Below the pieces are notes generated by a model, which saw only the letters and a list, made by a program, of their open reading frames with translations, searched no databases and was not told the origin of the DNA. Positions 24,687 to 48,122 of a stretch of 64,000 nucleotides of DNA are shown piece by piece (the first letter of the stretch is position 1; every line of letters starts with the position of its first letter). The translations under genes were made by a program, and so were the position numbers. The DNA comes from Candidatus Giovannonibacteria bacterium. Lineage in GTDB: Bacteria > Patescibacteriota > Minisyncoccia > JACPKW01 > UBA11713. Location of the stretch: positions 64,428 through 128,427 of the forward strand of contig JACPKW010000004.1 in the NCBI GenBank assembly GCA_016186825.1, read 5' to 3'.

Positions 24687-24713
24687 ATTGCGATCCAAGA
24701 TATTCAATAGATT

Positions 24714-24758
24714 CACTACTTCATATATTCACGATCGTGCACATATGAAGTAGTGAGA
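24714..24758 (+). terminator. hairpin after rpoC (TCACTACTTCATAT...ATATGAAGTAGTGA)
   Basis: 14 bp inverted repeat with 16 nt loop directly after rpoC stop; weak U-tract. Confidence 0.45.
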
Positions 24759-24854
24759 AGAAGAAGAAGTCATAGCTAGGTCTTAAAGTGGAATCCCAAA
24801 AAGCCTTTAAATATGGGCTTTTTTGGTGTTTAAAGCCTAGTTAGTTTTTAGGAC

Positions 24855-24883
24855 TTGACATTGGAAGCCGCAGGTGCTATAAT
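24855..24883 (+). promoter_or_regulatory. consensus sigma70 promoter TTGACA-17nt-TGcTATAAT
   Basis: Perfect -35 and -10 hexamers with 17 nt spacer and extended -10 TG. Confidence 0.6.
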
Positions 24884-24889
24884 GCTCCA

Positions 24890-25044
24890 ATAATAAGGAA
24901 TTAAGGCAATTTGAAAACTTTATAGCCCGCCTACGCTAAAGCTACGGCGGACGAAGAGAGAGCGGATCGCAAACACCGTATAGTTTGCAAAAAGGCGATT
25001 TCGCAATCTCTTAATAATGAAGAAAGTGCGAAATCGCCTTTTTT
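24890..25044 (+). ncRNA. candidate ~155 nt small RNA (promoter-to-terminator unit, unknown family)
   Basis: Starts about 7 nt after consensus -10; ends in a perfect 17 bp stem AAAAAGGCGATTTCGCA/TGCGAAATCGCCTTTTT plus T6; no ORF with SD inside. Confidence 0.4.
24989..25044. terminator. bidirectional intrinsic terminator
   Basis: 17 bp perfect stem, 21 nt loop, A-run 5' and T-run 3'. Confidence 0.75.
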
Positions 25045-25108
25045 CATAGTCGAGACGGGAGGAAGATCAAAAATAATTTATAAAGCGAAAAAAGAAAGGA
25101 GGTGATAG

Positions 25109-25264
25109 TGTGTGTCCAAAATGTGGTGGCCTGAATTGCCCTCGATGCGGGAAGTGTCCCGCGGAAGGGGCGGAAAAATGTTTGCGGTGCGGCCAAGACC
25201 TCCGGCCGAAGCCAGTTCCGGAGGCAGAAGTCAGAACGGACGAAATCCATTTCGATTTCTCTGA
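25109..25264 (+). CDS. small ORF (51 aa, GTG start) behind perfect SD, Cys-containing N-terminus CPKCGGLNCP
   Basis: AAAGGAGGTGAT 7 nt upstream of GTG; low-complexity Arg/Gly/Pro-rich remainder; could be non-coding. Confidence 0.2.
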   Translation, partial: CVSKMWWPELPSMREVSRGRGGKMFAVRPRPPAEASSGGRSQNGRNPFRFL

Positions 25265-25569
25265 AGAGTTCGAGTAAATTTCACCGGTCGCGGACGTGAG
25301 GTCGGTGCATCGAAAGATGCAAAGTCTCGGGGTGCTCTCGAGACACGCGTAAAAACAAGCAGAAGGCACTGCTTGCCGAAAAGTTCCGAGGTGCGCTTGG
25401 AACATGCCATATGGGGAGCTTGGAAATATCCAAAAGCTCCCCGCCAAATTTGAGATCTTACTTGGTTAAAAAAAACTGATCGAGCTCTCAAAATTGGTTC
25501 TTCGAAAAAGTTTTTCCTCCGATTTTGTGCGCTGGAGCTCGGCGCATAAAAAATAAAAGGAGGAGAAAA

Positions 25570-25767
25570 ATGGAAAAGATAAAAGTGTTGGGGCGATTGC
25601 CCCTAGAAAAAGTTGGGCGGCGGTTTTTCCCGCTGTCCCAGCCGGTGCCTGCGCACATTTGTGCGCATAATATTGGTCGCGACGCGTACCGCAAATGCGG
25701 GGCGTCGCTAAAAAAAGATGGAGCTTGCCCAAACTCGCGGTTTCACCGCGAGCAAAAGGCAGTCTAA
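25570..25767 (+). CDS. small protein (65 aa) with 4 Cys, strong SD
   Basis: AAAAGGAGGAGAAAAATG; HIC...KCGASLKKDGAC pattern suggests possible metal-binding ribbon. Confidence 0.35.
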   Translation: MEKIKVLGRLPLEKVGRRFFPLSQPVPAHICAHNIGRDAYRKCGASLKKDGACPNSRFHREQKAV

Positions 25768-25818
25768 CCCGCACGCGATGTTATATCGTCGTGCGGCGGA
25801 TTGAAAGGAGGTGAACCA

Positions 25819-25827
25819 ATGTTGTAA
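25819..25827 (+). CDS. 2-codon mini-ORF (ATG TTG TAA) behind perfect SD, followed by two hairpins
   Basis: GAAAGGAGGTGAACCA ATG TTG TAA; hairpins CAAACTCG-AAAA-CGAGTTTG and GGGCAGA...TCTGCCC directly downstream. Confidence 0.25.
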   Translation: ML

Positions 25828-25976
25828 ATATTCAAACTCGAAAACGAGTTTGAGGGCGTGGGCAGAGCCAGATAATCTGCCCCTCAACTAAGTTTTTATC
25901 CCTAGTCTAAGGATTACAATTGGGATGAAAACTTTGAGAGAAAGTTCTTAAAAAAAATAAGAAAGGAGGTGATGAT

Positions 25977-26189
25977 GTGGCGTGGTTCCGATTTTTTTTC
26001 GGAACTCCCCGGAGGTTTCTAACGACACTGGCCTTCGTCGGGCTTGTGTCCGTTATGATATCTCCCGGGTTGCTTCGCACCGCGGTAGAAAGACTGCTTG
26101 CGGAGTTAAATCCGCTGTTGGGGCCGGCGCTGACGATCATGATCGTCTTTGCTGGAATCCGTCTGATCCTTTTCGGTCGGCGGAGATAA
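25977..26189 (+). CDS. small two-TM membrane protein (70 aa, GTG start)
   Basis: GGAGG 7 nt upstream of GTG; two hydrophobic helices (FLTTLAFVGLVSVMISPGLL, LLGPALTIMIVFAGIRLILFG). Confidence 0.35.
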   Translation: MAWFRFFFGTPRRFLTTLAFVGLVSVMISPGLLRTAVERLLAELNPLLGPALTIMIVFAGIRLILFGRRR

Positions 26190-26381
26190 CCCAAGGGGAC
26201 GTCAGCTGGAGACGACTTGTCCAGCTACTCGGATCGCGCCTAGCCGAGGAAAAATAAACGCGATTAACCCAAGGCAACAGCTCAATAACGGGCAAAGCTT
26301 GAATGATAAGTCCTTGGTTCTCCCGCGAAGGCGAGGAGGTAAAAAATAAATCAAGCTTTCGGTTGATTTTAACCGGAGCTT

Positions 26382-26504
26382 TGATCAAAGTTTCTGATCG
26401 TTGAATTAAAAACACTTCGATATATATGTAGTGAGCTCGCCGAACTATCGAAGTAAATACTATGATGCATCATAGTATTAAAATTCGAATGGAAATTTTG
26501 ATGA
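26382..26504. repeat. ~125 bp direct repeat, copy 1 (contains 24 bp palindrome AATACTATGATGCATCATAGTATT)
   Basis: Near-identical to 28439-28568 except a 7 nt internal insertion in copy 2. Confidence 0.85.
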
Positions 26505-26557
26505 AAGCTCTTTAATACTTTCAGATTTTACTAAATTGAAAAATACGGATTTGTTAT

Positions 26558-26575
26558 CGCTATGATATATCATAG
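26558..26575. promoter_or_regulatory. 18 bp palindrome GCTATGATATATCATAGC (same core as 6544 and 7031 sites)
   Basis: Exact self-complementarity; core TATGATATATCATA. Confidence 0.6.
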
Positions 26576-26813
26576 CAATTTGAAAAAAAGAAATTGAGAA
26601 AAAGAAAGCTGGGAAGAATTATGGAGATTTTGAGAGAGATTAAATCCAGGCATTAAATTTATTGGCCTTGGCGGGCAGGGACGGGATCGGATCGGGAAAG
26701 CAGTGCGAGAGTTCGCTAACTGGTGAATTCGAAAACTTTGAGAGGTAAAACAACATCCCAACAAACTGGAGTTTATGAGGATGAGGAAAAGTTCTTTAAT
26801 AAAATTAAGATGC

Positions 26814-27077
26814 TCATCTGTAAATGTCTTTTCGGTGAGCTACACGGAGGAGCTGGATTGTTTTAGGATTAATGAACTGAAAAATAACTCGCCAGTCGCG
26901 AGTTATTCGAAAAGAATAAAGCCCTGAAAGTTTTCCAACCAGTGCTTTTGTGTGCAGTTGTGGATGAAAAACATTTTTTTCCAGAATTTCTGTGAGCTTC
27001 GAAAGTTTTTCTTGTTGATTTCGAGGAAGTCGCGCGGCGCTATCAAGAAATTTTTCAGTGAAAAGTATTCTTATCAT
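26814..27077 (-). CDS. type II toxin, RelE/ParE superfamily (87 aa)
   Basis: C-terminal LSGLYSFRITRDWRVIFQFINPKTIQLLRVAHRKDIY resembles RelE/ParE/YoeB-fold toxins; start overlaps upstream small gene (ATGA). Confidence 0.6.
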   Translation of the reverse strand: MIRILFTEKFLDSAARLPRNQQEKLSKLTEILEKNVFHPQLHTKALVGKLSGLYSFRITRDWRVIFQFINPKTIQLLRVAHRKDIYR

Positions 27078-27298
27078 GAACGCCGACGGCGCAATTCTCC
27101 TAGAAAGGCCTTTCTGCCCTTGAACTTATGCGCTGGTTTTTCTTTGCTTGCTTTGAGCATTTCCTCGACGAATTCAGGCTGGTATTCTCCTTCGGAATCC
27201 TTTCCTGCGATGCCAATCACGAAAGAACGCAGCCGTCTTACTTCCGCTTTGAGGTTTTCCATTTCTTTTGGATAGGCTATGGCCCTGTTCACTTTCAT
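27074..27298 (-). CDS. putative cognate antitoxin (74 aa)
   Basis: Small acidic/basic protein immediately upstream and translationally coupled to toxin gene. Confidence 0.45.
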   Translation of the reverse strand: MKVNRAIAYPKEMENLKAEVRRLRSFVIGIAGKDSEGEYQPEFVEEMLKASKEKPAHKFKGRKAFLGELRRRRS

Positions 27299-27531
27299 AT
27301 TTTAGTATGACGAGATTGATGCGGTCAATGTTTCTTTAAAACCTGTCCTCGGATGTGTATCCGGGCTGATGAGTCGAAAACGACGAAACAGGAAAAAGTT
27401 CTTTTTCAAATAAATTTCTAGCTGCTGTTTTCCTTCGACAAGCTCAGGATAAGTCGTTCTGAATTTGGAATGAAAACGGCAGCCGGAATTCACGAGATCT
27501 GGCTGACTAAAATTTATTGGAGGAAAAGGAA

Positions 27532-27735
27532 ATGGATTTTAGAAAATTCGTGGACACGATGGGTGGAGATGCAGTTCGGAGTCTGGGAAGGGTACCTGAC
27601 TCCACTGAGTCTAGGGAGATGCTAAAACTCAAGGCTGAAGAAGCCTTGGGTAAGAAACTTTCTGGTTACAGGTTTACCGGCAGCATCCTGCGGAGTGAAA
27701 ATCCGCAGGGCTTTGTCGGGATAGTGGCCTGGTAA
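27532..27735 (+). CDS. hypothetical small protein (67 aa from second Met)
   Basis: GGAGGA 8 nt upstream of ATG at 27532; no motif recognised. Confidence 0.3.
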   Translation: MDFRKFVDTMGGDAVRSLGRVPDSTESREMLKLKAEEALGKKLSGYRFTGSILRSENPQGFVGIVAW

Positions 27736-28090
27736 ATAACCTTTGCGGCGGAGGAAATGCAGAATATCGCATTTCCTCCGCCAGCTTCAATTAAGTTTTT
27801 GTCCTGCGTGAAATTGAAGGACGAAAACTTTGAGAGGTTATAATATCATCCTAACAAACTCAAGTTTATAAGGATAAAAAAAGTTCTTTACAAAATGTTT
27901 CTGGCTGTGGTTTTGGTGGCTTTCCCATAATAATATTATTTTGATGGGTTTAAATTAGCCGCCAAAATCGCAGCCGGAAATCTGAAATACATTCGGCTAG
28001 CTTTTCGGAGAGGAAAAAACAAAAAAGGTCAAAGCAGAGGACGAAATTGATTTTTTTGGCTTTATCCCAAAGAAAGGGGGGGGTGGCTTT

Positions 28091-28384
28091 ATGACGTTTG
28101 TGGGCTTGATCGGAGCGGTGTGGGTGCTGCAAATTCCTCTCGGTCTCTTTCTGGTGGGGGTTGCGTTGGTGGGGAGGTTTGAGAGGAAACACCCCACTTG
28201 GGAAGAGCTCTGCCGGGCGAAAGCGGAGGAAAATTTTGCGCGGGAGCGCAAAATTTTGAAGCACGTCGAGCGGTGCTTGACGTGCTCGGAGAGCGAAATA
28301 GGCAGGCATATTAAAGCGAGCCGCGATTTTTTCCAGCGCTGGCTCGCGGCGGACGGAAAACTTCCGCCGGAAGAATGGAGGTGA
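28091..28384 (+). CDS. hypothetical membrane-anchored protein (97 aa)
   Basis: GGGGGG/GGTGG SD-like tract upstream; N-terminal TM helix then charged cytoplasmic domain with CLTC. Confidence 0.35.
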   Translation: MTFVGLIGAVWVLQIPLGLFLVGVALVGRFERKHPTWEELCRAKAEENFARERKILKHVERCLTCSESEIGRHIKASRDFFQRWLAADGKLPPEEWR

Positions 28385-28438
28385 GACCGAATGAAAAAAA
28401 TCAGGCCTTGGCGCGGATATAATCTGCACCAAGGCCCC

Positions 28439-28568
28439 TGATCAAAGTTTCTGATCGTTGAACTAAAAACACTTCGATATTCGATATATATGTAGTGAGC
28501 TCGCCGAACTATCGAAGTAAATACTATGATGCATCATAGTATTAAAATTCGAATGGAAATTTTGATGA
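28439..28568. repeat. ~125 bp direct repeat, copy 2
   Basis: Matches 26382-26504; contains the same 24 bp palindrome at about 28518-28541. Confidence 0.85.
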
Positions 28569-28606
28569 GGGGTTCGTTAAAAAAACTTTTTAGAGGAGGA
28601 CATATT

Positions 28607-28717
28607 ATGAAGTATTTTTTTATGTTTTTGTTGATGGCGGTCTTATTGACCGCCCCGAGCTGTGGGATCGAGAAAGGGGGAGATGATGGGGGTGAGGATG
28701 CCCCCATCGAAACATAA
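28607..28717 (+). CDS. small secreted/lipoprotein-like peptide (36 aa)
   Basis: GAGGAGGA SD; MKYFFMFLLMAVLLTAPSC signal peptide with lipobox-like APSC, acidic Gly-rich tail. Confidence 0.3.
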   Translation: MKYFFMFLLMAVLLTAPSCGIEKGGDDGGEDAPIET

Positions 28718-28949
28718 AAACGAGAGGTGGGTCGACGAAAAATCGGCTCACCTTCTCAAAAATTCAAGTCGCTATGGAGCCGTGGAGTTAGTTTGTAACA
28801 TTCAAAAGATGAAACTCTCTCTTTGTCTTTTGTTCGAACTAGCTCACGGCTCTATGGCGATTTTTTGTTTTTTTCTTAGTTCTGTGGTCTAGAAACATTT
28901 GTGGATAATAAAATAGCTATGCGGTCAAATTGAATCTACACTTAGAGCA

Positions 28950-34194: not shown

Positions 34195-35205
34195 ATGATT
34201 AAGCCGAAAAAAGCAGACGAAAAAAAAGAAAAAAACTTGGGAGTGGAATCAGCGCTCAAAGAAATTCAGGCGAAATATGGCGAAGGGGCGATAATGAAAC
34301 TGGGCGAAGCGCGCAAAGTTGATGTTGATACGATTCCCTCGGGCTCCTTGGGACTGGATTTGGCGCTTGGAGTCGGCGGAGTGCCGCGCGGAAGAATTAT
34401 AGAAATCTACGGCCCGGAATCTTCGGGGAAAACTACTCTCGCCTTGCATATTGTCGCAAACGCCCAAAAAAAAGGCGGGCTTTGCGCATATGTGGACGCG
34501 GAGCATGCGCTTGATCCCGAATATGCGAGAAAAATCGGGGTAAAAATAGATGATCTTTTAATTTCCCAGCCGGACACCGGTGAGCAGGCTTTGGAAATTA
34601 CGGAAAGTCTGGTGCGTTCCGGTTCAATCGACGTTTTGGTGATCGATTCCGTCGCGGCTTTGACGCCGCAGGCTGAAATTGAAGGAGAGATGGGACAATC
34701 TCACATGGGCCTGCAGGCGCGATTGATGTCGCAGGCGCTTCGGAAACTTACTGCGATAGTCGCGAAGTCAAAAACGGTTGTGATTTTCATCAACCAAATC
34801 CGGATGCAGATTGGAATAATGTTTGGAAATCCGGAGACAACTACTGGGGGCAAAGCTTTAAAATTTTATGCTTCTGTGCGGATCGAGGTGCGCAGAGCCG
34901 CACAAATAAAAAAGGGGGAAGATATAGTTGGAAACAGAGTAAAGGCTAAGATTGTTAAAAATAAAGTCGCGCCTCCCTTCAGAACGGCGGAATTTGACAT
35001 TATGTATAACGAGGGCATTTCTTATGAGGGCGATTTGATTAACTTGGGGCTCAAGTACGAATTGATAAAAAAATCCGGCGCTTCGCTTTCTTTTGGCGAG
35101 GCCCGTTTGGGGCAAGGCTATGAAAATGCGAAGGAATATCTGCGCGCTAACCCTTTAATTGTGAAAGAGCTGGTTAAAGCTGTGCGTCAAAAAGCTGTAT
35201 CTTGA
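34195..35205 (+). CDS. recA: recombinase RecA
   Basis: [13 protein letters not shown] Walker A, L1/L2 loop regions conserved. Confidence 0.95.
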
Positions 35206-39712: not shown

Positions 39713-40516
39713 GTGATTTTCAGATATAAATTTTTTCGGATTCCGGTAATTATGCTCGCGCTCGCTTTTTTTGCGCTGGTTTATTTTGTAAGCGCGGGCA
39801 GCGCTGATGATCTTTCAGGGTGGGCTTGGTCTGAAAATATCGGCTGGATCAGTTTTAATTCTGTGAATTTGAATAGGGGCGCGAACTACGGAGTTCGCAT
39901 CAGCAACTCTGGAAATCTTTCAGGTTATGCTTGGTCTGAAAATATCGGCTGGATAAGTTTTAACGAAAATTCCGGATGTCCGAAGTCGCCTTGCGTCCCG
40001 AGATTAAACCGCGACACTGGTGAGGTTTCGGGATGGGCGCGTGCGCTTTCCGCTGATAATAAAGGGTGGGATGGATGGATAAGTTTCCGTGGCTCGGGAT
40101 ACGGCGTTACTGTATCAAACTGCCTTTGGGATGGCTGGGCTTGGGGGTCAGATGTTGTCGGCTGGGTTCATTTCAAAGGAGCTGGATACGGTGTGGCTGC
40201 TAAAGACCAAGGCTGTATCGAAGAGCCTCTGCCACCTCCGCCACCGCCTCTGGTGTGTCCTTCTGGACAAGTGCGCCCGCATCGAACTTGCGAGGACGAG
40301 GTCTGCAAATTGGTTGATTCATGCGGAGTTTCTTCGTGCACTTCATCTTCCGAATGCAAGCCCAAAAAAGTTACCCAATGCTCGGATGGCATTGATAACG
40401 ATGGGGATGCAAAAGTTGATTATCGAACTTCACCGCTTCGTGCGGGACGCCCGAGCGATCCAGGCTGCTCCTCCCTCGAAGACGACAATGAGCGAAATTT
40501 GATTATTGAGATTTGA
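39713..40516 (+). CDS. secreted Trp-rich repeat protein with C-terminal MopE-like Cys/Asp motif; 3' end remodelled by cassette insertion
   Basis: Repeats SGWAWSENIGWISFN x2 plus degenerate copies; CSDGIDNDGDAKVDY...DPGC; the last 8 codons differ from the predicted ancestral end. Confidence 0.5.
   Translation: MIFRYKFFRIPVIMLALAFFALVYFVSAGSADDLSGWAWSENIGWISFNSVNLNRGANYGVRISNSGNLSGYAWSENIGWISFNENSGCPKSPCVPRLNRDTGEVSGWARALSADNKGWDGWISFRGSGYGVTVSNCLWDGWAWGSDVVGWVHFKGAGYGVAAKDQGCIEEPLPPPPPPLVCPSGQVRPHRTCEDEVCKLVDSCGVSSCTSSSECKPKKVTQCSDGIDNDGDAKVDYRTSPLRAGRPSDPGCSSLEDDNERNLIIEI
40446..40491. repeat. 46 bp direct repeat (copy 1) = target-site duplication of HicAB cassette
   Basis: GACGCCCGAGCGATCCAGGCTGCTCCTCCCTCGAAGACGACAATGA, identical at 41096-41141. 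Confidence 0.85.
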
Positions 40517-40576
40517 TTGGCTAAAACTTTTTTTGTGACGGTTGACCGTCCTTGATCGTTGTAATAAGGTATTTCT

Positions 40577-40807
40577 ATGGCGAAGACAAAAAAACAATTC
40601 ACCGCCATTTATAAAAAAGCCGGGGGATGGTATTTGGGATGGATTGAAGAAATTCCCGGAGTCAACAGCCAAGGCAAAACGCTTCGAGAAGTTAAAAATA
40701 ATCTCAAAGAGGCCTTAACGCTTATAATTGAAACAAATAAAGCGCTTTTGTCCAAAGATGAGCCTTCCGGCAAAAGAATTCGAGAAGTGCTCTCGGTTTC
40801 TGTTTAA
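40577..40807 (+). CDS. hicB: HicB-family antitoxin (UPF0150)
   Basis: GWYLGWIEEIPGVNSQGKTLREVKNNLKEALTLIIE matches HicB N-terminal fold. Confidence 0.6.
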   Translation: MAKTKKQFTAIYKKAGGWYLGWIEEIPGVNSQGKTLREVKNNLKEALTLIIETNKALLSKDEPSGKRIREVLSVSV

Positions 40808-40815
40808 TTTGTTTT

Positions 40816-41013
40816 TTGATGAGGCGCGCTGACTTAATCCGTCATTTAGTAAAAGAGGGTTGTATTTTTGTTCGCGAAGGGGGTAGTCATAGCGTATTTT
40901 TTAATCCAGCAACTAGGCGTTCATCAACTGTACCGCGGCATAATGAAATTCATTACTTTTTGGCTCGAAAAATTTGCCGTGACTTGGGGATAAGAGAGCT
41001 TAGAAAAAAATAA
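40816..41013 (+). CDS. hicA: HicA-family mRNA interferase toxin
   Basis: LVKEGCIFVREGGSHSVFFNP...TVPRH with the GSH signature of HicA/YcfA. Confidence 0.75.
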   Translation: MMRRADLIRHLVKEGCIFVREGGSHSVFFNPATRRSSTVPRHNEIHYFLARKICRDLGIRELRKK

Positions 41014-41095
41014 TCTCATGCAGTTACCTTTTTGCGCTAATTGTCTCATAACATTAATACAAGAAAACTTCGAACGGAAATTTTATCTATTATCA

Positions 41096-41141
41096 GACGC
41101 CCGAGCGATCCAGGCTGCTCCTCCCTCGAAGACGACAATGA
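41096..41141. repeat. 46 bp direct repeat (copy 2)
   Basis: Identical to 40446-40491; in the host-gene frame this copy continues ...DDNEKF-stop. Confidence 0.85.
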
Positions 41142-41162: not shown

Positions 41163-42788
41163 TTAATCAATTCTTTCTAGACAGTAAACCTCGTTTGCAT
41201 CCGTAGAGACAAAATATCTTTTTGTGTTTTCATTATAAACTACTTTTTGAGTAATTTTTTCAGTGACCTGGAAAACTCTTGTTGCTTTTCCAGTTTCCGG
41301 ATTGAATTCATATAAAGTTCCTCCATTAGAGCCCACATAAACATTTCCATCAATAATATTTGGGGTTGCTATAATTCTGCCACTCGTTGCAAACTGCCAT
41401 TTCATTTCTCCGGTTCTTAAATCAAAACAGTAAATATTTTTGTCTGTGGATGTAAAATAAACTTTGCTGTCTCTTACAACCGGACTCGAATAAATAATAT
41501 CTTCTGTTTTAAATTTTCCAATAACGTTTCCCGTATCAAGATCCAATGCATATTCGTTTTTATCAAATGAACCAAAGAGGAGAAGATTTGTTTCAATGTC
41601 GAATGCAAGGGAAGCTTTTATTTCGCCTCCTGTTTCATATTTCCAAAGAAGTGTTCCATTTTTCGCATTGAATAAATAAACTGTATTATCATTTCCTCCG
41701 ATCGCAACAATTTGTTTTTCTTTGCAATAAGCCGGTGAGCAGTGCACATATTCCGGCACTTTATAATCCCAAATTTTTTCTCCGGTATCCATCTTCAAAG
41801 CGGCGATTCCTCCCTTTCTTTTGAAAAGTCCAAACTCTAGTCCTATGAATACCAAATTTAAATCTGGCGCAAGAGCGGGCGATGAACCGATCCAGTCTGC
41901 TTCAGAATATTTCCAAATAATCTTTCCGTCTTTCGCATTCTGGCAGTAAAAATTACCATCGTAAGAGCCGAAATATATCATTTTTTTATTTATTGCAGGT
42001 GAAGAAAAGATACTTTTACCCATTGAAGGATAGCCAACTTTATATTTCCAAGCCACCGAACCGTCATTTTGATTTATGGCCCATAAAAATCCGTTATCAC
42101 TTCCGAAATAAATTTTTTCATTGTCCATGCACGGTGTTGATTTCGGTACAACGTGAAAAAGATTTGCATCAGGGGCCTGAAATTTCCACATAATTTTGAA
42201 TCTTTCTTGGGGAGTAAATCTTTTTTTAGGACTCATTGAAAGCCCGAAGTCTTTTAACGAGAAAAGATAGGTCAAATTAATATTTCTTTTTTTAATAAAA
42301 TCGAAATCATCATTTCCGCTGAAATTCATTATTGGAAAGATGCGGGAAACAATTTTTCCCGTTTCTTCTATAATCCGGATTTGACGCAGAAAAGTTGATC
42401 CGCTATTTATTATATCGTCAACTAAAATAATCGGCGTGTTATCCAATTCTCCTTCAATCAATTTTTGGAGTCCTATGCTTTTGCGAGCTTTTCTGATCAT
42501 AAAACCGTTTACTGGTTTGCCGATCTGATGGGAACGAAGAACAATGGCTCCAATTAACGGCACGGCGGCTAATTCTTGGCCTCCGACTTGAAATGGATAT
42601 TCTTTTTCAAATTTTTCCCAAAAAATATCAACGATTAAATCAAGCGCCTCGGGCTTTAAAAAAATATTTCTTAAATCAAACAGCCAATTTTCTCGTTCAC
42701 CAGTTGGAGAAATGATTATATGGGTTTTTGAAGTGGGAAGAGCGTCCCTTTTAATAATATTTTTAAGCTTTTCTAATTTTTGTTCCAC
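41163..42788 (-). CDS. fusion protein: orotate-PRTase-like (type I phosphoribosyltransferase) N-domain + 8-bladed PQQ/BamB-like beta-propeller
   Basis: GKPVNGFMIRKARKSIG...PIILVDDIINSGST matches PyrE motifs; C-terminal repeated YFGSxDGxLxAxxxxDGxxxWKY blades; start overlaps SagB-like gene stop. Confidence 0.6.
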   Translation of the reverse strand: MEQKLEKLKNIIKRDALPTSKTHIIISPTGERENWLFDLRNIFLKPEALDLIVDIFWEKFEKEYPFQVGGQELAAVPLIGAIVLRSHQIGKPVNGFMIRKARKSIGLQKLIEGELDNTPIILVDDIINSGSTFLRQIRIIEETGKIVSRIFPIMNFSGNDDFDFIKKRNINLTYLFSLKDFGLSMSPKKRFTPQERFKIMWKFQAPDANLFHVVPKSTPCMDNEKIYFGSDNGFLWAINQNDGSVAWKYKVGYPSMGKSIFSSPAINKKMIYFGSYDGNFYCQNAKDGKIIWKYSEADWIGSSPALAPDLNLVFIGLEFGLFKRKGGIAALKMDTGEKIWDYKVPEYVHCSPAYCKEKQIVAIGGNDNTVYLFNAKNGTLLWKYETGGEIKASLAFDIETNLLLFGSFDKNEYALDLDTGNVIGKFKTEDIIYSSPVVRDSKVYFTSTDKNIYCFDLRTGEMKWQFATSGRIIATPNIIDGNVYVGSNGGTLYEFNPETGKATRVFQVTEKITQKVVYNENTKRYFVSTDANEVYCLERID

Positions 42789-42789
42789 T

Positions 42790-43536
42790 CTATTGTAATT
42801 TGCCTAAAACTGATAAGTGAACTGTTGATTCTTCTTCATTGTCAATATCCAGCATTAGTTCTATTTTTTCATTTGAATAGCCAGCTAAATGGCAGCACCC
42901 TATGTTCAAAGCCGAGCTGATAAGCGCAATATTTTGCATTAAATGCCCTGATTCATTTAAAACGATTTTATATCCGAAGTCTTTGTATTTGATAAAATTT
43001 CTGTCCCAAACTGACGTAAGGATAACAAAAAGAGCTGCGTCCTTTGACCATGGATAAAACATAGCTTCTTTAATAATTTTTATTCCTTCAGATTCAATCA
43101 GCTCTTCAAGCGCATGTTTTTTTACATTGTAGTGATAAATGCCTCTGTCTAAATCAGTTACATTTTGTGCTCCGATATAAATTTCTAAGGGGTATCGTGA
43201 CCCGCCTGAAGGATAGAATCTTTTTGATCCATTCCATTCCCCATTATCCGGAATTTTTCTGATTCCGCCCCCGAAATATAGAAGAGTCGAAAGTTCTTCA
43301 AATGTAATCGGTTTATTGCTGAATTCTCTTGTTGAATGGCGGTTTTTAAGGGCAGATTCTAAATTTCCAAGCTCTAAAAAATTCCATGATAAAGGAATCA
43401 AATTTAATCGAGGATATTCTTTGAAATACACTGTTTTCCAGGATTTCGGCCAAGTTTTCGGGTCGCTAGGCCCAGTCCCGGATTTAAATTTAAAATTTAT
43501 TTCTTTATGAAATAATTTTGAGAGAGCTCCAATCAT
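42790..43536 (-). CDS. SagB/McbC-type (nitroreductase-fold) dehydrogenase of azole RiPP pathways
   Basis: NRHSTREF and YPSGGSRYPLEIY motifs; 4 nt overlap with YcaO gene. Confidence 0.75.
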   Translation of the reverse strand: MIGALSKLFHKEINFKFKSGTGPSDPKTWPKSWKTVYFKEYPRLNLIPLSWNFLELGNLESALKNRHSTREFSNKPITFEELSTLLYFGGGIRKIPDNGEWNGSKRFYPSGGSRYPLEIYIGAQNVTDLDRGIYHYNVKKHALEELIESEGIKIIKEAMFYPWSKDAALFVILTSVWDRNFIKYKDFGYKIVLNESGHLMQNIALISSALNIGCCHLAGYSNEKIELMLDIDNEEESTVHLSVLGKLQ

Positions 43537-45005
43537 GGAAAAGGATGAGGTTCTTGATTTAATGTTAGCGCGGCTTTATATCCCATTTTTTCAGGGATTT
43601 CTTTCAGGCGTTTGCCTCCGAAATATGGGATTGACTCGTTTAAGTGCATTGGCTGGAGTTCAGAAATAATTACTTTTGCGCTAAAAATTCCAAGCTTTTC
43701 AATTTCAGGTGTAGTTATTTTAACATAACAAGCTTCATAATTTTTTTTGCTTAATTCATCTGATAGGATTTTTAATTTTTCCTTGAAATACTCTTGTGTT
43801 TCTCTCAACTCGAACATTCGTTTTTTCAGATCTATCTTCACTTTTTCTCCGCTAAATATGAATTCTATTTTGTTCAAATTTTCTGGCCTGGACCAATAAA
43901 TTAATCTTTCTTCTCGTCCTATTTGTTTTTCATTTATATCATTTTTGAATTTTCTTTTTAATGAATAACGAACTATTAATGCTTCTGACAACGAATCGAT
44001 TATTGCTTGCTTAAAGTCAAAATCAGCGCTCGCACCTACACAAAAAGCAGGGCCTAATCCTGTTCTATCGAGTATTACGGCGAGGTAGATATGAACGGGA
44101 AAATCGCTCGGGAGTCGAACTATGTATGGTTCGAGCCTATATCGCTGAAAGTTTTTAATTATTGCATTTATTTCCTCATCTTGAGCACTGACGTAATCTA
44201 GATCGACAACTTCGGGCGATAATTTATTTAAATAGGTGATCATAAATGCATCTCTTTCGATAACTTCCATAATTCCTTTCACTATAGCTTCAACCATGTT
44301 TCTACCCGAGGCTAACCCTGTTGTTATGCACCATCTAAGAAGCGGTTCTTTTCGATTTTGTGTCGGGCTTAATCTTTGATTTCTATAAGCAAAGTTGGAG
44401 CTTGCAAGCTGAAGAGGGCAATACATTTTTTCGTTGCCCTGAACTGAAAAAGCCTCGAGCCACCTAAGCTCTGTCTGAGTATTAAATTTGAGATTCGATA
44501 AATTACTTTTTTGCTCTTCCGAAAAACCGGCAAGTTTAAATATATTTAATGCCTTGCCTTTCAAATCTTCATAATTGCTTTCAACTGAATTTTTCAGCAA
44601 ATGGTCTGAACTGGACCAAAGTGATCGTTCAACTCCTTCTGCGGTCGCGCGCCATATCGCCTTCACTTCGTTATTGAATTCCACTCCTGTGCCTAATTTT
44701 ATATTGCTTTCTTTGTTGCTATTCACGTTGTAAATATATATGAAAGGTTCATCTGGATAACGTCTCCCCTTTTTTATATTTTCTATTATTCCCATTGACT
44801 GAAGTTGGTACAGAGTATCAATGGCAACCAGCATCTCTTGACTTTTGTCAGCTAAAGTATCAGGGATTTTAACTAAAAGTTCAGAGCCAAAATATTTTTC
44901 AAGGTTTTTTAATAAAAACTTGGGCCATATAGAGAAAATCCCACCCTTATTAGGTTTTTTTAGGAAATCTTCGGCTTTTTTAGTAATTTCAAGTTTTTTT
45001 CCCAT
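43533..45005 (-). CDS. ycaO: YcaO-domain cyclodehydratase (TOMM D protein) with C-terminal PxPxP motif
   Basis: TGLASGRNMVEAIVKGIMEVIERDAF YcaO signature; C-terminus ...QEPHPFP. Confidence 0.8.
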   Translation of the reverse strand: MGKKLEITKKAEDFLKKPNKGGIFSIWPKFLLKNLEKYFGSELLVKIPDTLADKSQEMLVAIDTLYQLQSMGIIENIKKGRRYPDEPFIYIYNVNSNKESNIKLGTGVEFNNEVKAIWRATAEGVERSLWSSSDHLLKNSVESNYEDLKGKALNIFKLAGFSEEQKSNLSNLKFNTQTELRWLEAFSVQGNEKMYCPLQLASSNFAYRNQRLSPTQNRKEPLLRWCITTGLASGRNMVEAIVKGIMEVIERDAFMITYLNKLSPEVVDLDYVSAQDEEINAIIKNFQRYRLEPYIVRLPSDFPVHIYLAVILDRTGLGPAFCVGASADFDFKQAIIDSLSEALIVRYSLKRKFKNDINEKQIGREERLIYWSRPENLNKIEFIFSGEKVKIDLKKRMFELRETQEYFKEKLKILSDELSKKNYEACYVKITTPEIEKLGIFSAKVIISELQPMHLNESIPYFGGKRLKEIPEKMGYKAALTLNQEPHPFP

Positions 45006-45129
45006 TTACACACCTATAGTAGTTGTGGCTTCTAAATTAAATGTCTATTATTAAATTGTGCTGATAACTTCAATATAGATAGGTTTAATTTACATTAGCG
45101 TCTTAAAAAAGGGAAGCCGTGGTTTTTAC

Positions 45130-46269
45130 GTGATTGACTCAATAAATCAAAAGAAAATAGGCGCACTAGATATAAAAAATATATTATTATTAGTTATTAT
45201 TTTAATAATAGGAGTATTCTTGTACACTAATTTTTCTTTAAAACCCGATTTAAAACCCGATTTTCAGCAAGCTTTATCTCAGGCAGCAGAGCTGAGAGAT
45301 ATAGATTCCAAAAAAGCTGCTGAGAAATTTGAGATCGCACTTGCTTTGGCAAAAACCCCCGAACAAAAAGCTATTGCTAAATTATTCATTGCAAATAATT
45401 ATTTGGATGTTGAGCCTGCAAAGGGGATGAAGCTTTTAAAAGAGATTGTGGCAGATAATTCTATGCCTTCGATGCAACGTGCTTTTGCAATACAATTTAT
45501 TGCGGATAAATATATGCTGGGTTTACATTCTACGAAATTTGCTCGAGAAAATATTTTCAATGATTCTCCTTTCGATTCGTTTATTTTACCTGGTAATGAT
45601 AAAGATACAGATGCTGCGAATATAATATTGAAAGACCGAGTTGGCATTAGAAAAATTTATGAATTTGCCACAGATACTTTCCCCATTCCGGTCGCGAATT
45701 TTTGGGTAGCAGAATGGCATGCAAGAAGAGTGTTAATGTCAAACGAATATTCAAACTTGCCACTAGTTGAAGAAAGAGTGGAATATATCAAGAAAACTAA
45801 AGAATATATTGAAAAAGGTGATTTGGCGCTACCTGCTTTTATTTTGCATGAAGGTGAAAACAGTCAAGTGGCTTACGCTTATTGGGTGAAGGGATTAGCG
45901 CTCGGGTATCTTTATGAACTAGAAAAAAAATCTGAGTTACAAATTGAAGCGGAAGAAAGCTTTACAAAAGCATTGCAGATTCTGAAAAGTGGTTCGACTG
46001 ATTATATGAAATTACAATCCCTTTGGGCTAGTTTCTATTATGCTGATTTTCTTGCAACAAGTTTTGGTGTTGACAAAAAGCTTGAAGTTAAGAAAAGTCT
46101 TTCATATATTATGGAGCCACGTTTTTTTAATGATTTCGTTTTTTTGAAATATTTAAGGGTTGTAAAAGATGATAAAGACAGCTATACCCGAAAAAGAATA
46201 ATGCGATTGACTGAGCAGAATGTAGAATTCAAAGATTTTTTAATACGTTTAGGATGGGAGTTCAATTAG
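45130..46269 (+). CDS. hypothetical membrane-anchored alpha-helical protein (379 aa), cluster-associated
   Basis: N-terminal TM helix; no Cys; possible immunity or scaffold role (inference only). Confidence 0.35.
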   Translation: MIDSINQKKIGALDIKNILLLVIILIIGVFLYTNFSLKPDLKPDFQQALSQAAELRDIDSKKAAEKFEIALALAKTPEQKAIAKLFIANNYLDVEPAKGMKLLKEIVADNSMPSMQRAFAIQFIADKYMLGLHSTKFARENIFNDSPFDSFILPGNDKDTDAANIILKDRVGIRKIYEFATDTFPIPVANFWVAEWHARRVLMSNEYSNLPLVEERVEYIKKTKEYIEKGDLALPAFILHEGENSQVAYAYWVKGLALGYLYELEKKSELQIEAEESFTKALQILKSGSTDYMKLQSLWASFYYADFLATSFGVDKKLEVKKSLSYIMEPRFFNDFVFLKYLRVVKDDKDSYTRKRIMRLTEQNVEFKDFLIRLGWEFN

Positions 46270-46297
46270 TAAATTTTATTTTGCAACAAATAAAAAT

Positions 46298-46648
46298 ATG
46301 GGAGTCATAAAAAAACCAACTCGCAAGATCATTTCTCTAATACTTCCTGTCTTGAGCATTTTGGGTTTGGCTTTAATGAAAATACCCAAAGGCGAATATC
46401 ATTTAAGGGAGGCTGACAGAAAAATTTCTAAACTCTTTAAAATTGATAACTTTGCAGTTAATGAAGTTAATGCTGATATTGTCGAAGGCGGTTCCGGCGG
46501 AGATGGTGGTGGTTCTGTAAGTGATGACGGTTCTGGTGGTTGCGGAAGTGGCGGTTGCGGTTCTGGCGGAGATGGTGGAGGTACTGATGGCGGATGTGAT
46601 GCGGGAGATGGTGGTGATGACAGTGGCGACGACGGCGACGGCAAGTAA
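46298..46648 (+). CDS. candidate TOMM precursor peptide with Gly/Ser/Cys/Asp-rich core (microcin B17-like)
   Basis: C-terminal 50 aa GGSGGDGGGSVSDDGSGGCGSGGCGSGGDGGGTDGGCDAGDGGDDSGDDGDGK; alternative start at 46376 would give a soluble 38 aa leader. Confidence 0.5.
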   Translation: MGVIKKPTRKIISLILPVLSILGLALMKIPKGEYHLREADRKISKLFKIDNFAVNEVNADIVEGGSGGDGGGSVSDDGSGGCGSGGCGSGGDGGGTDGGCDAGDGGDDSGDDGDGK

Positions 46649-46667
46649 ATAATTTTTTTTCTCTTTA

Positions 46668-48089
46668 TTGAAAAGAATTTCTTTTTCTTTGTATTTTATT
46701 ATATGGAAAATCATGGAAAATTGTACTGAAGATCTAATAATAAGACCTGAAAAATCATTCAAACCTAGTATAAATTTTTCAAATCTTCTTGGAAATTCTC
46801 ATTTCGCAGAAAATTTAGAACCAATAATAAGTTCTCTCCGCGAATCGCAGTATTGGCCATTATCAAAGTTGGAGCAGATTCGCGAAGAGCGATTTCGAAA
46901 TTTATCTCATGATATTCGATCTTCTAAATTTTGGAGTGAATATTTCAAGAAATATGCAATTTCTACTTCTTCAAGTGAGGTATCAGAAGAATTATTAAAA
47001 TTTCCTGTTATTAATCGAAATGACTTCAGGAACTGGGGTAAGAATGTCTTTATTTATCAAAAAGATTTAAATATATTCAAAACTATTACAAGTGGGACAA
47101 GCGGGACTCCTTTAGAAATTATTCTGGACAAAAAAACTGCATCTATTGCTTATTTTTCCTTTTTCTTCAGAAATCCAATTTTTGAAAAAATTGATTTAGG
47201 TATATTGAATAGAAAATTTATTGTTAGTTTGGGAAACCATGGTTTAAGAAGATGGTTTAGGGATTTTATTTATCTATTTTCCATTTCTCCATCAGATCTT
47301 GAAAAAAAAGAAGTTCGCCAGAAAATATATAAACAGTTTGAAAAAATACCTGATGGAATGCTCGGAGGGTTTGCGTCTGTTGTCTTGAAGTTCGCTGAAT
47401 ATGCCGCCGATGAAAAAATAAAATTTCCGGGTCTATCTGCGATTAAAATCAGCAGTGAAGGGATTGGTTTGAATGATAGAACTTTTATTGAAAAGACTTT
47501 TGGCGCTCCTGTCCTGAATGAATTGAATTGTTCTGAAGCTGGCATGATTGGGTTCGAATGCCCTGAAAACCTTGGAAAATTTCATCTTAATGCTGAAAGA
47601 ATAATCATGGAGATTGTTGGAGAAAACAATGAAGCATTAGGGAAAAATAAAGAAGGTAAAATTATAATCACAGCCTTGGACCGTATAGCGATGCCTATAA
47701 TTCGTTATGAAATAGGAGATCGTGGAAAATTACTTTCTGAAATTTGTCGTTGTGGAAGAACTCTGCCATTGTTTGAATTTACTGGTCGTCAAAACAATAG
47801 TTTAATTTTTTCTGACGGGAAAAAAATTCGTTCAATTATAATACAAAGTGCATTAATCAAAAGTGGTTTGGCGAAAAAATGTAATTTCATCCAACTAAAG
47901 CAGCTAAATCCATACGATTTCCAATTCACAATTATTCCTTCACCTCTCTATTCCAAAGAGGATGAAACAAAAATAAGGGTGATTCTAACAAATCTTACGG
48001 AAAACAGAAAAATAAAAATTGATTTCGAATATAAAAACATTTCCGATTTAAAAAATAATAAACCATCTTTTTTTGTTCCTTTGCAATAA
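46668..48089 (+). CDS. PaaK/CapK/F390-synthetase-family adenylate-forming enzyme
   Basis: TSGTSGTPL AMP-binding motif, IRYEIGDRG; table start is TTG, probable ATG at 46713. Confidence 0.55.
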   Translation: MKRISFSLYFIIWKIMENCTEDLIIRPEKSFKPSINFSNLLGNSHFAENLEPIISSLRESQYWPLSKLEQIREERFRNLSHDIRSSKFWSEYFKKYAISTSSSEVSEELLKFPVINRNDFRNWGKNVFIYQKDLNIFKTITSGTSGTPLEIILDKKTASIAYFSFFFRNPIFEKIDLGILNRKFIVSLGNHGLRRWFRDFIYLFSISPSDLEKKEVRQKIYKQFEKIPDGMLGGFASVVLKFAEYAADEKIKFPGLSAIKISSEGIGLNDRTFIEKTFGAPVLNELNCSEAGMIGFECPENLGKFHLNAERIIMEIVGENNEALGKNKEGKIIITALDRIAMPIIRYEIGDRGKLLSEICRCGRTLPLFEFTGRQNNSLIFSDGKKIRSIIIQSALIKSGLAKKCNFIQLKQLNPYDFQFTIIPSPLYSKEDETKIRVILTNLTENRKIKIDFEYKNISDLKNNKPSFFVPLQ

Positions 48090-48092
48090 AAA

Positions 48093-48122
48093 AGAGGAGC
48101 GATGTTACAAATCGCTCCCCCT
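48093..48122. terminator. bidirectional hairpin between convergent genes
   Basis: GGAGCGATGTTACAAATCGCTCC stem-loop flanked by A-run and C/T-run. Confidence 0.5.

What the first reader, a model, noticed from the sequence alone, without database searches (positions are those of the whole stretch)
40446..41141. HicB-HicA toxin-antitoxin cassette inserted into the 3' end of a secreted-protein gene with a 46 bp target duplication
Identical 46 bp direct repeats flank a ~600 bp segment that carries hicB then hicA. Read in the host-gene frame, the distal repeat continues ...DDNEKF-stop, which is a plausible original C-terminus, while the proximal copy now reads ...DDNERNLIIEI-stop. So the insertion rewrote the end of the 39713 gene. 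No transposase is present, which implies a transposase-less mobile TA cassette or a site-specific capture. It also marks the left border of the RiPP island.
Basis: seen in the sequence. Interest (0 to 1): 0.6.

Follow-up and report, generated by a model that had tools for sequence, protein, structure and literature searches.

The report
HicBA cassette fenced by 46-bp repeats
A small toxin-antitoxin gene pair sits just after a secreted-protein gene in an uncultured groundwater bacterium, bracketed by two identical 46-base copies of a piece of that gene; the pair is an ordinary HicB-HicA module, and the repeat looks like a recombination scar rather than the footprint of a new mobile element.

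Summary
An exact 46-nt direct repeat (40446-40491 and 41096-41141; none expected by chance) brackets 604 bp that carry hicB (40577-40807) and hicA (40819-41013). Both pass Pfam's curated cut-offs. The window comes from a Candidatus Giovannonibacteria MAG.

Homologues of the host protein end '...DPGCxSxxDxxE + 8-14 residues with [F/I]xE[I/V]'. The proximal reading (ERNLIIEI-stop) is therefore the canonical end, and the distal 'EKF-stop' scores like random sequence. So the present gene end is canonical, not a novel sequence created by the insertion.

There is no transposase, no terminal inverted repeat, no hairpin and no homology beyond the repeat. Related hicB-hicA cassettes in four other contexts have no flanking repeats. 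No near-identical cassette or empty site exists in public assemblies.

The distal copy is a 63% GC patch stranded between AT-rich DNA, at the seam with the low-GC YcaO cluster. I read it as a relic of a recombination joint based on one-sided homology, not a transposition footprint. An integrase-less remnant of an integrative element is the main rival.

A second TA cassette (ParE-like) in the same window is also fenced by long repeats, which is worth a follow-up. Interest is modest.

The parts
39713..40516 (+). Host gene (NCBI HYW53_01855, hypothetical protein). It is a secreted or membrane-anchored protein with SGWAWSENIGWISFN repeats, a poly-Pro linker and a Cys-rich CxDGxDNDxDxxxD...DPGC motif. 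It is intact and has the canonical family C-terminus.
   Evidence: ORF. It is 100% identical to P0001 from a 256,829-bp Candidatus Giovannonibacteria contig. An alternative ATG start at 39752 is the one used by gene calls on Logan contigs.
40446..40491 (+). Proximal copy of the 46-nt repeat. It lies inside the host gene and encodes (G)RPSDPGCSSLEDDN(E).
   Evidence: The frame was worked out.
40492..40516 (+). Last 8 codons plus the stop of the host gene (E)RNLIIEI*. This is the family-typical tail.
40517..40576 (+). Spacer between the host-gene stop and hicB. It holds a -35-like TTGACC (40542-40547) that aligns with the TTGAC of related cassettes' promoter-like regions, and an AAGG Shine-Dalgarno 7 nt before the ATG.
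   Evidence: alignment with L007, L012 and L018. The consensus scan found no full sigma-70 match, so the promoter is inferred.
40577..40807 (+). hicB antitoxin, 76 aa. It has only the N-terminal HicB/UPF0150 domain and no DNA-binding domain.
   Evidence: Pfam PF21748. Weak match to Burkholderia pseudomallei HicB 6g1c/6g1n. 321 homologues, the nearest 76% identical.
40819..41013 (+). hicA toxin, 64 aa (a TTG at 40816 is an alternative start). The G22-S23-H24 catalytic motif is present.
   Evidence: Pfam PF07927, E 4.9e-13. Alignment to E. coli HicA. The role of the catalytic His is described in PMC11594946.
41014..41095 (+). AT-rich right flank of the cassette (30.5% GC). It contains the 20-nt motif AAACTTCGAACGGAAATTTT (41065-41084), which it shares with the hairpin repeat that flanks the ParE cassette.
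41096..41141 (+). Distal copy of the 46-nt repeat. It is a 63% GC, non-coding relic stranded between AT-rich DNA, 21 nt from the stop of the convergent PRTase/beta-propeller gene.
   Evidence: The sequence on either side is unrelated to the flanks of the proximal copy.
41163..42788 (-). Convergent gene for a phosphoribosyltransferase-like plus PQQ-type beta-propeller protein. It is the first gene of the low-GC YcaO/nitroreductase cluster.
   Evidence: A 50% identical homologue occupies the same relative position in another Giovannonibacteria genome (L023).

Best explanation
The locus holds an ordinary, apparently intact type II toxin-antitoxin operon in the hicB-then-hicA order. It lies 60 nt downstream of the natural stop codon of an intact secreted-protein gene.

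How the module works (by homology): HicA is a small ribosome-independent RNase whose active-site His is masked by HicB. Here HicB is the short, single-domain form without a DNA-binding domain.

What the repeat is: it is not a transposase footprint. The downstream copy is a displaced duplicate of an internal piece of the gene's 3' coding region (codons for RPSDPGCSSLEDDNE). It sits exactly at the seam between the hicBA segment and the low-GC YcaO cluster.

Most likely history (inferred): two versions of this locus existed in the population. One had gene - canonical tail - hicBA. The other had the gene cut after ...DDNE and abutting the low-GC cluster. A single recombination event joined them, homologous on one side and illegitimate on the other. 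This would be either homology-facilitated illegitimate recombination of taken-up DNA or a Campbell-type single crossover of a circularised fragment. The recombinant kept 46 nt of the second gene copy.

Consequence (inferred): RecA-mediated recombination between the two copies would delete hicBA together with the gene's canonical tail. Post-segregational killing by HicA would select against that loss and so help preserve the structure.

Shown: the anatomy, the family assignment, the canonical gene end, the sharp repeat edges and the composition. Inferred: the recombination history and the stabilising role.
For: - The repeat is exact, has two copies only and is not expected by chance.
- HicA and HicB pass Pfam's curated thresholds. 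They are 11 nt apart, and relatives have the same order.
- The HicA G-S-H motif is present (PMC11594946).
- The proximal tail is family-typical: 54.4 bits against 48.9 for the distal tail, and 1 of 300 random tails does as well.
- There is no similarity outside the repeat on either side, and the insert has no terminal inverted repeats. The repeat has no hairpin (z -0.25).
- The distal copy is 63% GC, between a 30.5% GC flank and a 34% GC cluster. Its composition matches the host gene and not its surroundings.
- hicBA and the YcaO-cluster genes both have low GC3 (23-39%), against 45-54% for core genes.
- Related hicB-hicA cassettes in four contexts lack flanking repeats. Only the promoter region and the ORFs are conserved, so the gene tail is not a conserved part of the cassette.
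- recA lies 5 kb upstream (34195-35205; Pfam listing).
- In another Giovannonibacteria genome, the same slot next to the propeller gene holds two AbiEii TA modules. The slot therefore recurrently collects TA genes.
- Another Patescibacteria contig has the same geometry: an 83-nt exact duplication (85 nt with adjoining bases) of codons 6-33 of a PolX gene brackets one inserted gene, the gene stays intact, and the relic has its own ATG at the same distance (L029).
Against: - No genome with a single repeat copy, or with either proposed parental arrangement, was found. The history therefore rests on anatomy alone.
- The proposed parental allele ending ...DDNEKF would lack the family tail, so it needs an earlier truncation by the low-GC DNA.
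- No microhomology is visible at the junction between the right flank and the repeat.
- A second TA cassette in the same window is also fenced by long repeats, and it shares a 20-nt motif with the hicBA right flank. This hints at something more systematic than a one-off scar.
Confidence: 0.5

Rival explanations
1. This is a remnant of a site-specific integrative element, or two elements in tandem. The 46-nt repeat is the att core. An element that targets the 3' end of this gene brought its own copy of the gene end plus hicBA as its stabilising module. The integrase was later lost or acts in trans, which would make this a CIME-like element. The low-GC YcaO cluster could be a second element whose far att site has decayed.
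For: - Exact direct repeats of tens of bases at the 3' end of a gene, with the gene kept intact by insert-side codons, are the classic attL/attR anatomy.
- Both hicBA and the YcaO cluster are compositionally foreign.
- TA modules are typical survivors of decayed elements (general knowledge; PMC11594946).
Against: - No integrase or recombinase domain was found in any ORF from 40.5 to 49.7 kb.
- There is no third repeat copy or remnant at the right edge of the low-GC region.
- The repeat has no internal dyad symmetry.
- A homologue of the propeller gene is syntenic in another Giovannonibacteria genome, so the cluster may not be a recent island.
Confidence: 0.2
2. A transposase-less mobile hicBA cassette inserted into a gene that originally ended ...DDNEKF. 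The insertion duplicated 46 bp of target and rewrote the C-terminus to ...DDNERNLIIEI.
For: - The geometry (repeat - insert - repeat) fits a target duplication.
- A stop follows the distal copy after two codons.
- The distal copy abuts the neighbouring gene with a plausible 11-nt convergent spacer.
Against: - The supposedly new tail is the family-typical one, and a random insert would give this only about 1 time in 300.
- 46 bp is far longer than the target duplications of known bacterial transposable elements (about 2-15 bp; own knowledge).
- There are no terminal inverted repeats.
- No identical or near-identical cassette exists elsewhere, and relatives have no flanking duplications.
Confidence: 0.1
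3. This is a purely local rearrangement and hicBA has long been the gene's neighbour. Either a tandem duplication of about 650 bp or more, starting at 40446, was followed by deletion or replacement of all but the first 46 nt of the second copy, or a short templated patch was copied during repair. The repeat would then have nothing to do with acquisition of the cassette.
For: - It explains the canonical proximal tail and the sharp edges without any special machinery.
- Tandem duplications are common mutations (own knowledge).
Against: - It needs two independent events, one of which ends exactly at the seam with the low-GC cluster.
- No trace of a second tail or hicBA copy remains.
- It does not explain why the only two exact repeat pairs of at least 30 nt within 3 kb in this window both bracket TA cassettes.
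Confidence: 0.12
4. This is an assembly or population artefact. The chromosome has one repeat copy, and the 650-bp unit exists as a separate circle, as a tandem array, or in only part of the population.
For: A k=31 graph cannot tell the integrated form from an empty site plus a circle, because both give the same four junctions.
Against: - The 256-kb MAG contig runs through both copies (one search gives the contig length).
- An independent contig from another run spans host gene - repeat - hicB.
- 46 nt is not k or k-1 of the commonly used assembler k-mer sets (own knowledge).
Confidence: 0.05

Closest known systems
HicBA / HicAB type II toxin-antitoxin modules (for example Streptococcus pneumoniae HicBA, Burkholderia pseudomallei HicAB, E. 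coli HicAB)
   Same: - A two-gene operon.
- A HicA toxin of about 60 aa with the Gly-x-His active-site motif.
- A HicB with the partial RNase H-like N-terminal domain.
- The hicB-first order also occurs in known systems (PMC11594946 and PMC6159526).
   Different: [quoted passage not shown] The review says such short HicBs are common. No activity has been tested here.
ParDE-like TA module of Microcystis aeruginosa PCC 7806 'fenced' by two identical 152-bp direct repeats downstream of the orthocaspase gene (PMC7935541)
   Same: A TA pair lies immediately downstream of a host gene and is bracketed by two identical direct repeats. No transposase lies between them.
   Different: There the repeats are intergenic and contain a 16-bp inverted repeat. 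Here the repeat is a 46-nt piece of the host gene's coding sequence with no dyad symmetry.
Integrative elements that target the 3' end of a gene and are flanked by att direct repeats (for example SGI1 at the 3' end of trmE), and their integrase-less derivatives (CIMEs)
   Same: Direct repeats lie at the 3' end of a protein gene. The gene is kept intact by codons on the insert side. The cargo includes an addiction module (the SGI1 target site is from the abstract of PMC6531882).
   Different: No integrase was found here, no excision evidence exists, and the element is only 0.6 kb. CIMEs are cited from my own knowledge and were not checked in a paper here.
Homology-facilitated illegitimate recombination during natural transformation (described in Acinetobacter and Streptococcus pneumoniae; own knowledge, not checked in a paper here)
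   Same: One homologous anchor plus one illegitimate joint can add foreign DNA next to a conserved gene. If the illegitimate joint falls inside the anchor region, it can leave a short duplicate of the anchor.
   Different: It has never been shown in Patescibacteria. No microhomology can be seen at the joint. The donor and recipient arrangements are hypothetical.

Membership tests
HicA toxin (Pfam PF07927) | Profile match above the curated threshold over the whole ~60-aa domain | tested here: met
   49.4 bits against a cut-off of 27, E 4.9e-13, profile positions 2-58 of 58.
HicA toxin (Pfam PF07927) | Catalytic histidine (His23/24 in the E. coli, S. meliloti and B. pseudomallei proteins) preceded by Gly | tested here: met
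   G22-S23-H24 in the 64-aa product. It aligns to the GSNH region of E. coli HicA with a one-residue offset. The role of the residue is described in PMC11594946.
HicA toxin (Pfam PF07927) | RNase activity and toxicity that the partner neutralises | not testable with these tools
   This needs expression experiments.
HicB antitoxin (UPF0150-like, PF21748) | Profile match to the N-terminal partial RNase H-like domain | tested here: met
   30.3 bits against a cut-off of 27.3, which is marginal. It is supported by a weak match to B. pseudomallei HicB 6g1c (E 0.0067) and by 321 homologues that carry the same Pfam domain.
HicB antitoxin (UPF0150-like, PF21748) | [quoted passage not shown] | tested here: not met
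   The protein is only 76 aa and has no second domain. The review notes that HicBs without a DNA-binding domain are common, so this does not exclude membership of the broader family.
HicB antitoxin (UPF0150-like, PF21748) | Adjacent to and co-oriented with hicA | tested here: met
   An 11-nt spacer on the same strand. Relatives L007, L012, L013 and L018 have the same order.
Transposon / insertion sequence with target-site duplication | A transposase gene | tested here: not met
   The segment holds only hicB and hicA. No transposase domain was found there or in neighbouring ORFs.
Transposon / insertion sequence with target-site duplication | Terminal inverted repeats at the ends of the insert | tested here: not met
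   The best inverted alignment of the two ends is no better than shuffles (1323 of 2000 shuffles as good).
Transposon / insertion sequence with target-site duplication | A short target duplication of fixed length (about 2-15 bp in known bacterial elements) | tested here: not met
   The duplication is 46 bp. The range for known elements is from my own knowledge.
Site-specific integrative element (att-flanked island or CIME) | Direct repeats (attL/attR) at both ends, at a gene terminus | tested here: met
Site-specific integrative element (att-flanked island or CIME) | An integrase or recombinase in or next to the element | tested here: not met
   No recombinase domain was found in any ORF from 39.1 to 51.7 kb. 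A CIME would lack one by definition.
Site-specific integrative element (att-flanked island or CIME) | An empty site or excised form in relatives or in reads | not testable with these tools
   No close relative exists in any collection.
Integron gene cassette | An attC site (imperfect palindrome with RYYYAAC and GTTRRRY boxes) at the cassette end, and an intI integrase | tested here: not met
   The 46-nt repeat does not fold better than shuffles (z -0.25), nor does the right flank. No intI was found in the window ORFs examined.

The most novel reading that the evidence does not exclude
Patescibacteria may carry small, recombinase-less gene cassettes, often toxin-antitoxin pairs. These would enter at the very end of a resident gene through a long stretch (46-130 nt) of identity, supply the replaced terminal codons themselves and leave the displaced gene end as a relic. 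That would be a cassette-exchange system driven by host recombination or by an unknown enzyme acting in trans.

Three observations fit this reading:
- the hicBA cassette itself;
- the ParE/DUF2683 cassette 14 kb upstream, fenced by a 123-130-nt hairpin repeat that shares a 20-nt motif with the hicBA flank;
- the PolX-gene case in L029, where both the intact gene and the relic have a start codon five codons before the repeat.
Probability: 0.1. Interest if true: 0.65.

Novelty: new member of a known kind. Interest (0 to 1): 0.3.

Why it matters
As it stands, this is one more HicBA module in a Candidate Phyla Radiation genome, with a tidy example of how a junction scar can mimic a target-site duplication.

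It matters in three modest ways.
- It corrects the reading that the gene end was rewritten. The secreted protein keeps its canonical C-terminus.
- It marks the seam next to a YcaO/nitroreductase peptide-modification cluster, in a slot that also collects TA modules in another Giovannonibacteria genome.
- Together with the repeat-fenced ParE cassette and the L029 case, it raises a testable question: do these streamlined, probably naturally transformable bacteria acquire single genes through one-sided homologous recombination that leaves long duplications? Read mapping in the existing groundwater data sets could answer that.

Tried and rejected
- **Empty-site search.**
  - Exact-protein look-ups of the host protein (two start codons) and of HicA (two start codons) found nothing on record.
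  - A codon-degenerate pattern of the repeat gave 0 hits in GTDB species genomes and 0 in viral contigs. It gave one unrelated protein with the same DPGCSSLEDDNE motif in JGI metagenomes.
  - A search with the neighbouring DUF4015 protein returned only relatives at 56% identity or less.
  - The test could therefore not be done.
- **Logan contigs.** They are built with k=31 and break at the 46-nt repeat, so they cannot separate filled from empty sites.
- **A third repeat copy at the right edge of the low-GC region** (the tandem-accretion idea): none found.
- **Extended or degenerate homology around the repeats, and terminal inverted repeats:** none found.
- **A hairpin or attC-like structure, or a terminator, in the repeat or the flanks:** none found.
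- **Flanking repeats around related hicB-hicA cassettes:** none in four contexts.
- **Phage origin:** no HicB relative in IMG/VR.
- **Rfam:** only two tRNAs in the window.
- **PDB sequence search for HicA:** no hit at E 0.01 or better.
- **The ParE-flanking repeat as an attC site:** rejected. Only one GTTRRRY-like box is present and there is no RYYYAAC partner on the same strand (reading of the sequence).
Full report
**What is there.** The window comes from a Candidatus Giovannonibacteria metagenome-assembled genome. The host protein is 100% identical to NCBI HYW53_01855, which lies on a 256,829-bp contig. An exact 46-nt direct repeat lies at 40446-40491 and 41096-41141. It has only these two copies in 64 kb even when three mismatches are allowed, and none in 100 shuffles. 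A sensitive search found no partial third copy. The 604 bp between the copies carry two co-oriented small genes. The first is hicB (40577-40807, 76 aa, Pfam PF21748, 30.3 bits against a cut-off of 27.3). The second is hicA (40819-41013, 64 aa, PF07927, 49.4 bits against 27). HicA has the Gly-Ser-His motif at residues 22-24, which corresponds to the catalytic His23/24 of characterised HicA toxins (PMC11594946). HicB weakly matches the solved Burkholderia pseudomallei HicB and lacks a DNA-binding domain, which the same review says is common.

**Is the structure real?** Independent assemblies of other runs from the same sample series support it.
- One Logan contig runs from the host gene through the proximal repeat into hicB and hicA, identical to the window, until it ends in adapter sequence (L001).
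- A contig coming from the left stops exactly 30 nt into the repeat (L004).
- Contigs coming from the right stop exactly 30 nt into the distal copy (L019).

With k = 31, this is what a 46-nt sequence with two left and two right contexts produces. These graphs cannot exclude a mixture of an empty site and a circle. The long MAG contig and L001 argue for the integrated form.

The host protein belongs to a large Patescibacteria family (3,362 hits). Of the 13 homologues that end soon after the conserved DPGC motif, 10 carry a further 8-14 residues with the tail motif [F/I]xE[I/V], most often followed by xP. Examples are ...ERDLPRPKFHETAP...EKDRPGIIEVPPR...ESDKPKIIEISPL and ...ERTPRFREI. The proximal reading ...ERNLIIEI fits this pattern. 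A profile built from 12 of those homologue tails scores it at 54.4 bits, against 48.9 for ...EKF and 46.5 for no tail. Only 1 of 300 random AT-rich tails scores as well. The gene as it stands has the canonical C-terminus, and the distal copy is the odd one out. Composition agrees. The distal copy is a 63% GC patch lying between a 30.5% GC flank and the 34% GC cluster. It therefore looks like host-gene sequence out of place.

**What the repeat is not.**
- The segment holds no transposase, and no recombinase domain was found in any ORF up to 51.7 kb.
- The two ends of the insert are not inverted repeats.
- The sequences just outside the two repeat copies are unrelated, so the edges are sharp.
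- Neither the repeat nor the flanks fold better than shuffled sequence, so this is not an attC-like site.
- 46 bp is well outside the range of known bacterial target duplications (own knowledge).
- The nearest HicB in 5.8 billion proteins is 76% identical.
- Related hicB-hicA cassettes retrieved in four different genomic contexts have no flanking repeats of 18 nt or more around the cassette, apart from one AT-rich, 83% identical 18-mer pair that looks like a chance match.
- Those cassettes align with this one only over a promoter-like TTGAC region and the two ORFs, not over the 25-nt gene tail or the right flank.
- No relative is present in viral contigs.

Nothing therefore indicates a cassette that is actively spreading with a characteristic long duplication.

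**Context.** From the cassette to about 48.1 kb the DNA is low in G+C. Third-position GC is 23-39% for hicB, hicA and the cluster genes, against 45-54% for core genes. The cluster encodes:
- a PRTase-like/beta-propeller protein (41163-42788, minus strand);
- a nitroreductase-family protein (42790-43536);
- a YcaO protein (43533-45005);
- a Gly/Cys/Ser/Asp-rich 116-aa candidate precursor (46298-46648).

However, in another Giovannonibacteria genome (L023), a 50% identical propeller gene lies in the same convergent position downstream of the DUF4015 gene. Two AbiEii toxin modules abut its 3' end there. The cluster may therefore be an older resident, and the slot beside it a recurrent landing place for TA genes.

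**Most likely history (inference).** All the facts fit a recombination joint. A gene with its canonical tail and hicBA downstream became joined to DNA that began 46 nt before the end of a second copy of the same gene, and that copy abutted the low-GC cluster. One homologous crossover plus one illegitimate joint would give exactly gene - repeat - tail - hicBA - repeat - cluster in one step. This could be homology-facilitated illegitimate recombination of taken-up DNA, or a single crossover of a circularised fragment. recA lies 5 kb upstream. In that allele, however, the truncated end was the derived state and not the original. The two copies are now substrates for deletion of hicBA plus the canonical tail, and HicA-mediated killing after loss would oppose that.

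I rate this family of explanations at about 0.5. The rivals are:
- an integrase-less remnant of a site-specific integrative element (0.2);
- a local tandem duplication followed by deletion (0.12);
- an assembly or population artefact (0.05).

**A lead that points the other way.** Most of the 11 pairs found were tRNA duplicates or contig-end artefacts. The window contains two pairs, and both bracket TA cassettes. The second pair is a 123-130-nt repeat (26382-26504 and 28439-28568). It folds into a long hairpin (z -6.6). It fences a ParE-like toxin and a DUF2683 protein, which are also bracketed more tightly by an 84% identical 70-nt repeat. The 3' arm of the hairpin shares a 20-nt motif with the right flank of hicBA. 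That motif has only three sites in the window. A third case of the same geometry is in L029. There an 83-nt exact duplication (85 nt with adjoining bases) of codons 6-33 of a PolX gene brackets one inserted membrane-protein gene. The intact gene and the relic each have an ATG five codons before the repeat. These observations keep open, at roughly 10%, the idea of a systematic mode of cassette acquisition in these bacteria. A known parallel is the ParDE-like module of Microcystis aeruginosa, which is fenced by identical 152-bp repeats (PMC7935541).

**Verdict.** This is a real and neatly defined structure: an ordinary HicBA module, a misread gene end and an unresolved but probably unremarkable recombination scar. 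I class it as a new member of a known kind, with interest 0.3. The decisive test is read mapping across the four possible junctions in the existing sequencing runs.

Noticed in passing
window 26382-28568: A second TA cassette is fenced by long direct repeats. A 123-130-nt repeat (26382-26504 and 28439-28568) has an 89-nt exact core, one mismatch and a 7-nt TTCGATA indel. It brackets about 1.9 kb that carry a ParE/RelE-like toxin (26814-27077, minus strand) and a DUF2683 protein (27074-27298, minus strand). Each repeat copy folds into a long hairpin (z -6.6) that includes a perfect 24-nt palindrome, AATACTATGATGCATCATAGTATT. The differing bases just outside each copy also pair (AGCTT/AAGCT at copy 1, CCCC/GGGG at copy 2).
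   Followed up: partly
window 26730-26799 and 27822-27890: A nested pair of 70-nt direct repeats, 84% identical, tightly brackets the ParE/DUF2683 pair, a 72-aa ORF and a strong hairpin (27748-27783).
   Followed up: no
window 41065-41084, 26480-26499, 28544-28563: The 20-nt motif AAAYTTCGAAYGGAAATTTT occurs only three times in the window (0.29 expected with up to 3 mismatches). One site is in the right flank of hicBA, 11 nt before the distal repeat. The other two are in the 3' arm of the hairpin repeats that flank the ParE cassette. The left flank of hicBA also shares TGATCGTTG with the 5' arm of the hairpin.
   Followed up: partly
window 41163-48100: A low-GC (34%) cluster that looks like a YcaO-dependent peptide-modification locus. 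It holds a PRTase-like/PQQ beta-propeller fusion, a nitroreductase-family (SagB-like) protein, YcaO, two proteins without Pfam hits (379 and 473 aa), and a 116-aa ORF (46298-46648) whose C-terminal half is almost entirely Gly, Cys, Ser and Asp, as expected of a precursor peptide.
   Followed up: partly
L023 11141-16392 (Candidatus Giovannonibacteria RIFCSPHIGHO2_02_43_16): The propeller gene is in the same relative position downstream of the DUF4015 gene. The intervening slot holds a histidine kinase, an HTH/ATPase protein and two AbiEii-type toxin modules that abut the 3' end of the propeller gene. This suggests a conserved landing place for TA genes.
   Followed up: partly
L029 1524-1606 and 2703-2785: An 83-nt exact duplication (85 nt with adjoining bases) of codons 6-33 of a PolX-like gene brackets one inserted 340-aa membrane-protein gene. 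The intact gene reads MMVKI before the repeat. The upstream relic reads MDSKN before it, with an ATG at the same five-codon distance, and has a stop just after the repeat. This is the same geometry as the hicBA locus, but at the 5' end of a gene.
   Followed up: partly
window 39798-39963: The host gene contains an internal 105-nt-period repeat (61 nt, 85% identical) that encodes the SGWAWSENIGWISFN motif twice. Short-k-mer contigs also break here (L002 ends at 39961).
   Followed up: no
L001 1108-1126: The Logan contig that confirms the proximal junction ends in CTGTCTCTTATACACATCT, a Nextera adapter sequence (identified from my own knowledge). The contig therefore rests on very few reads.
   Followed up: no
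window 24700-28900: About 4 kb downstream of rpoC' contains no long ORF. It holds several small ORFs, two near-perfect palindromes (24713-24756 and 24986-25046) and the repeat structures above. Rfam finds nothing there.
   Followed up: no
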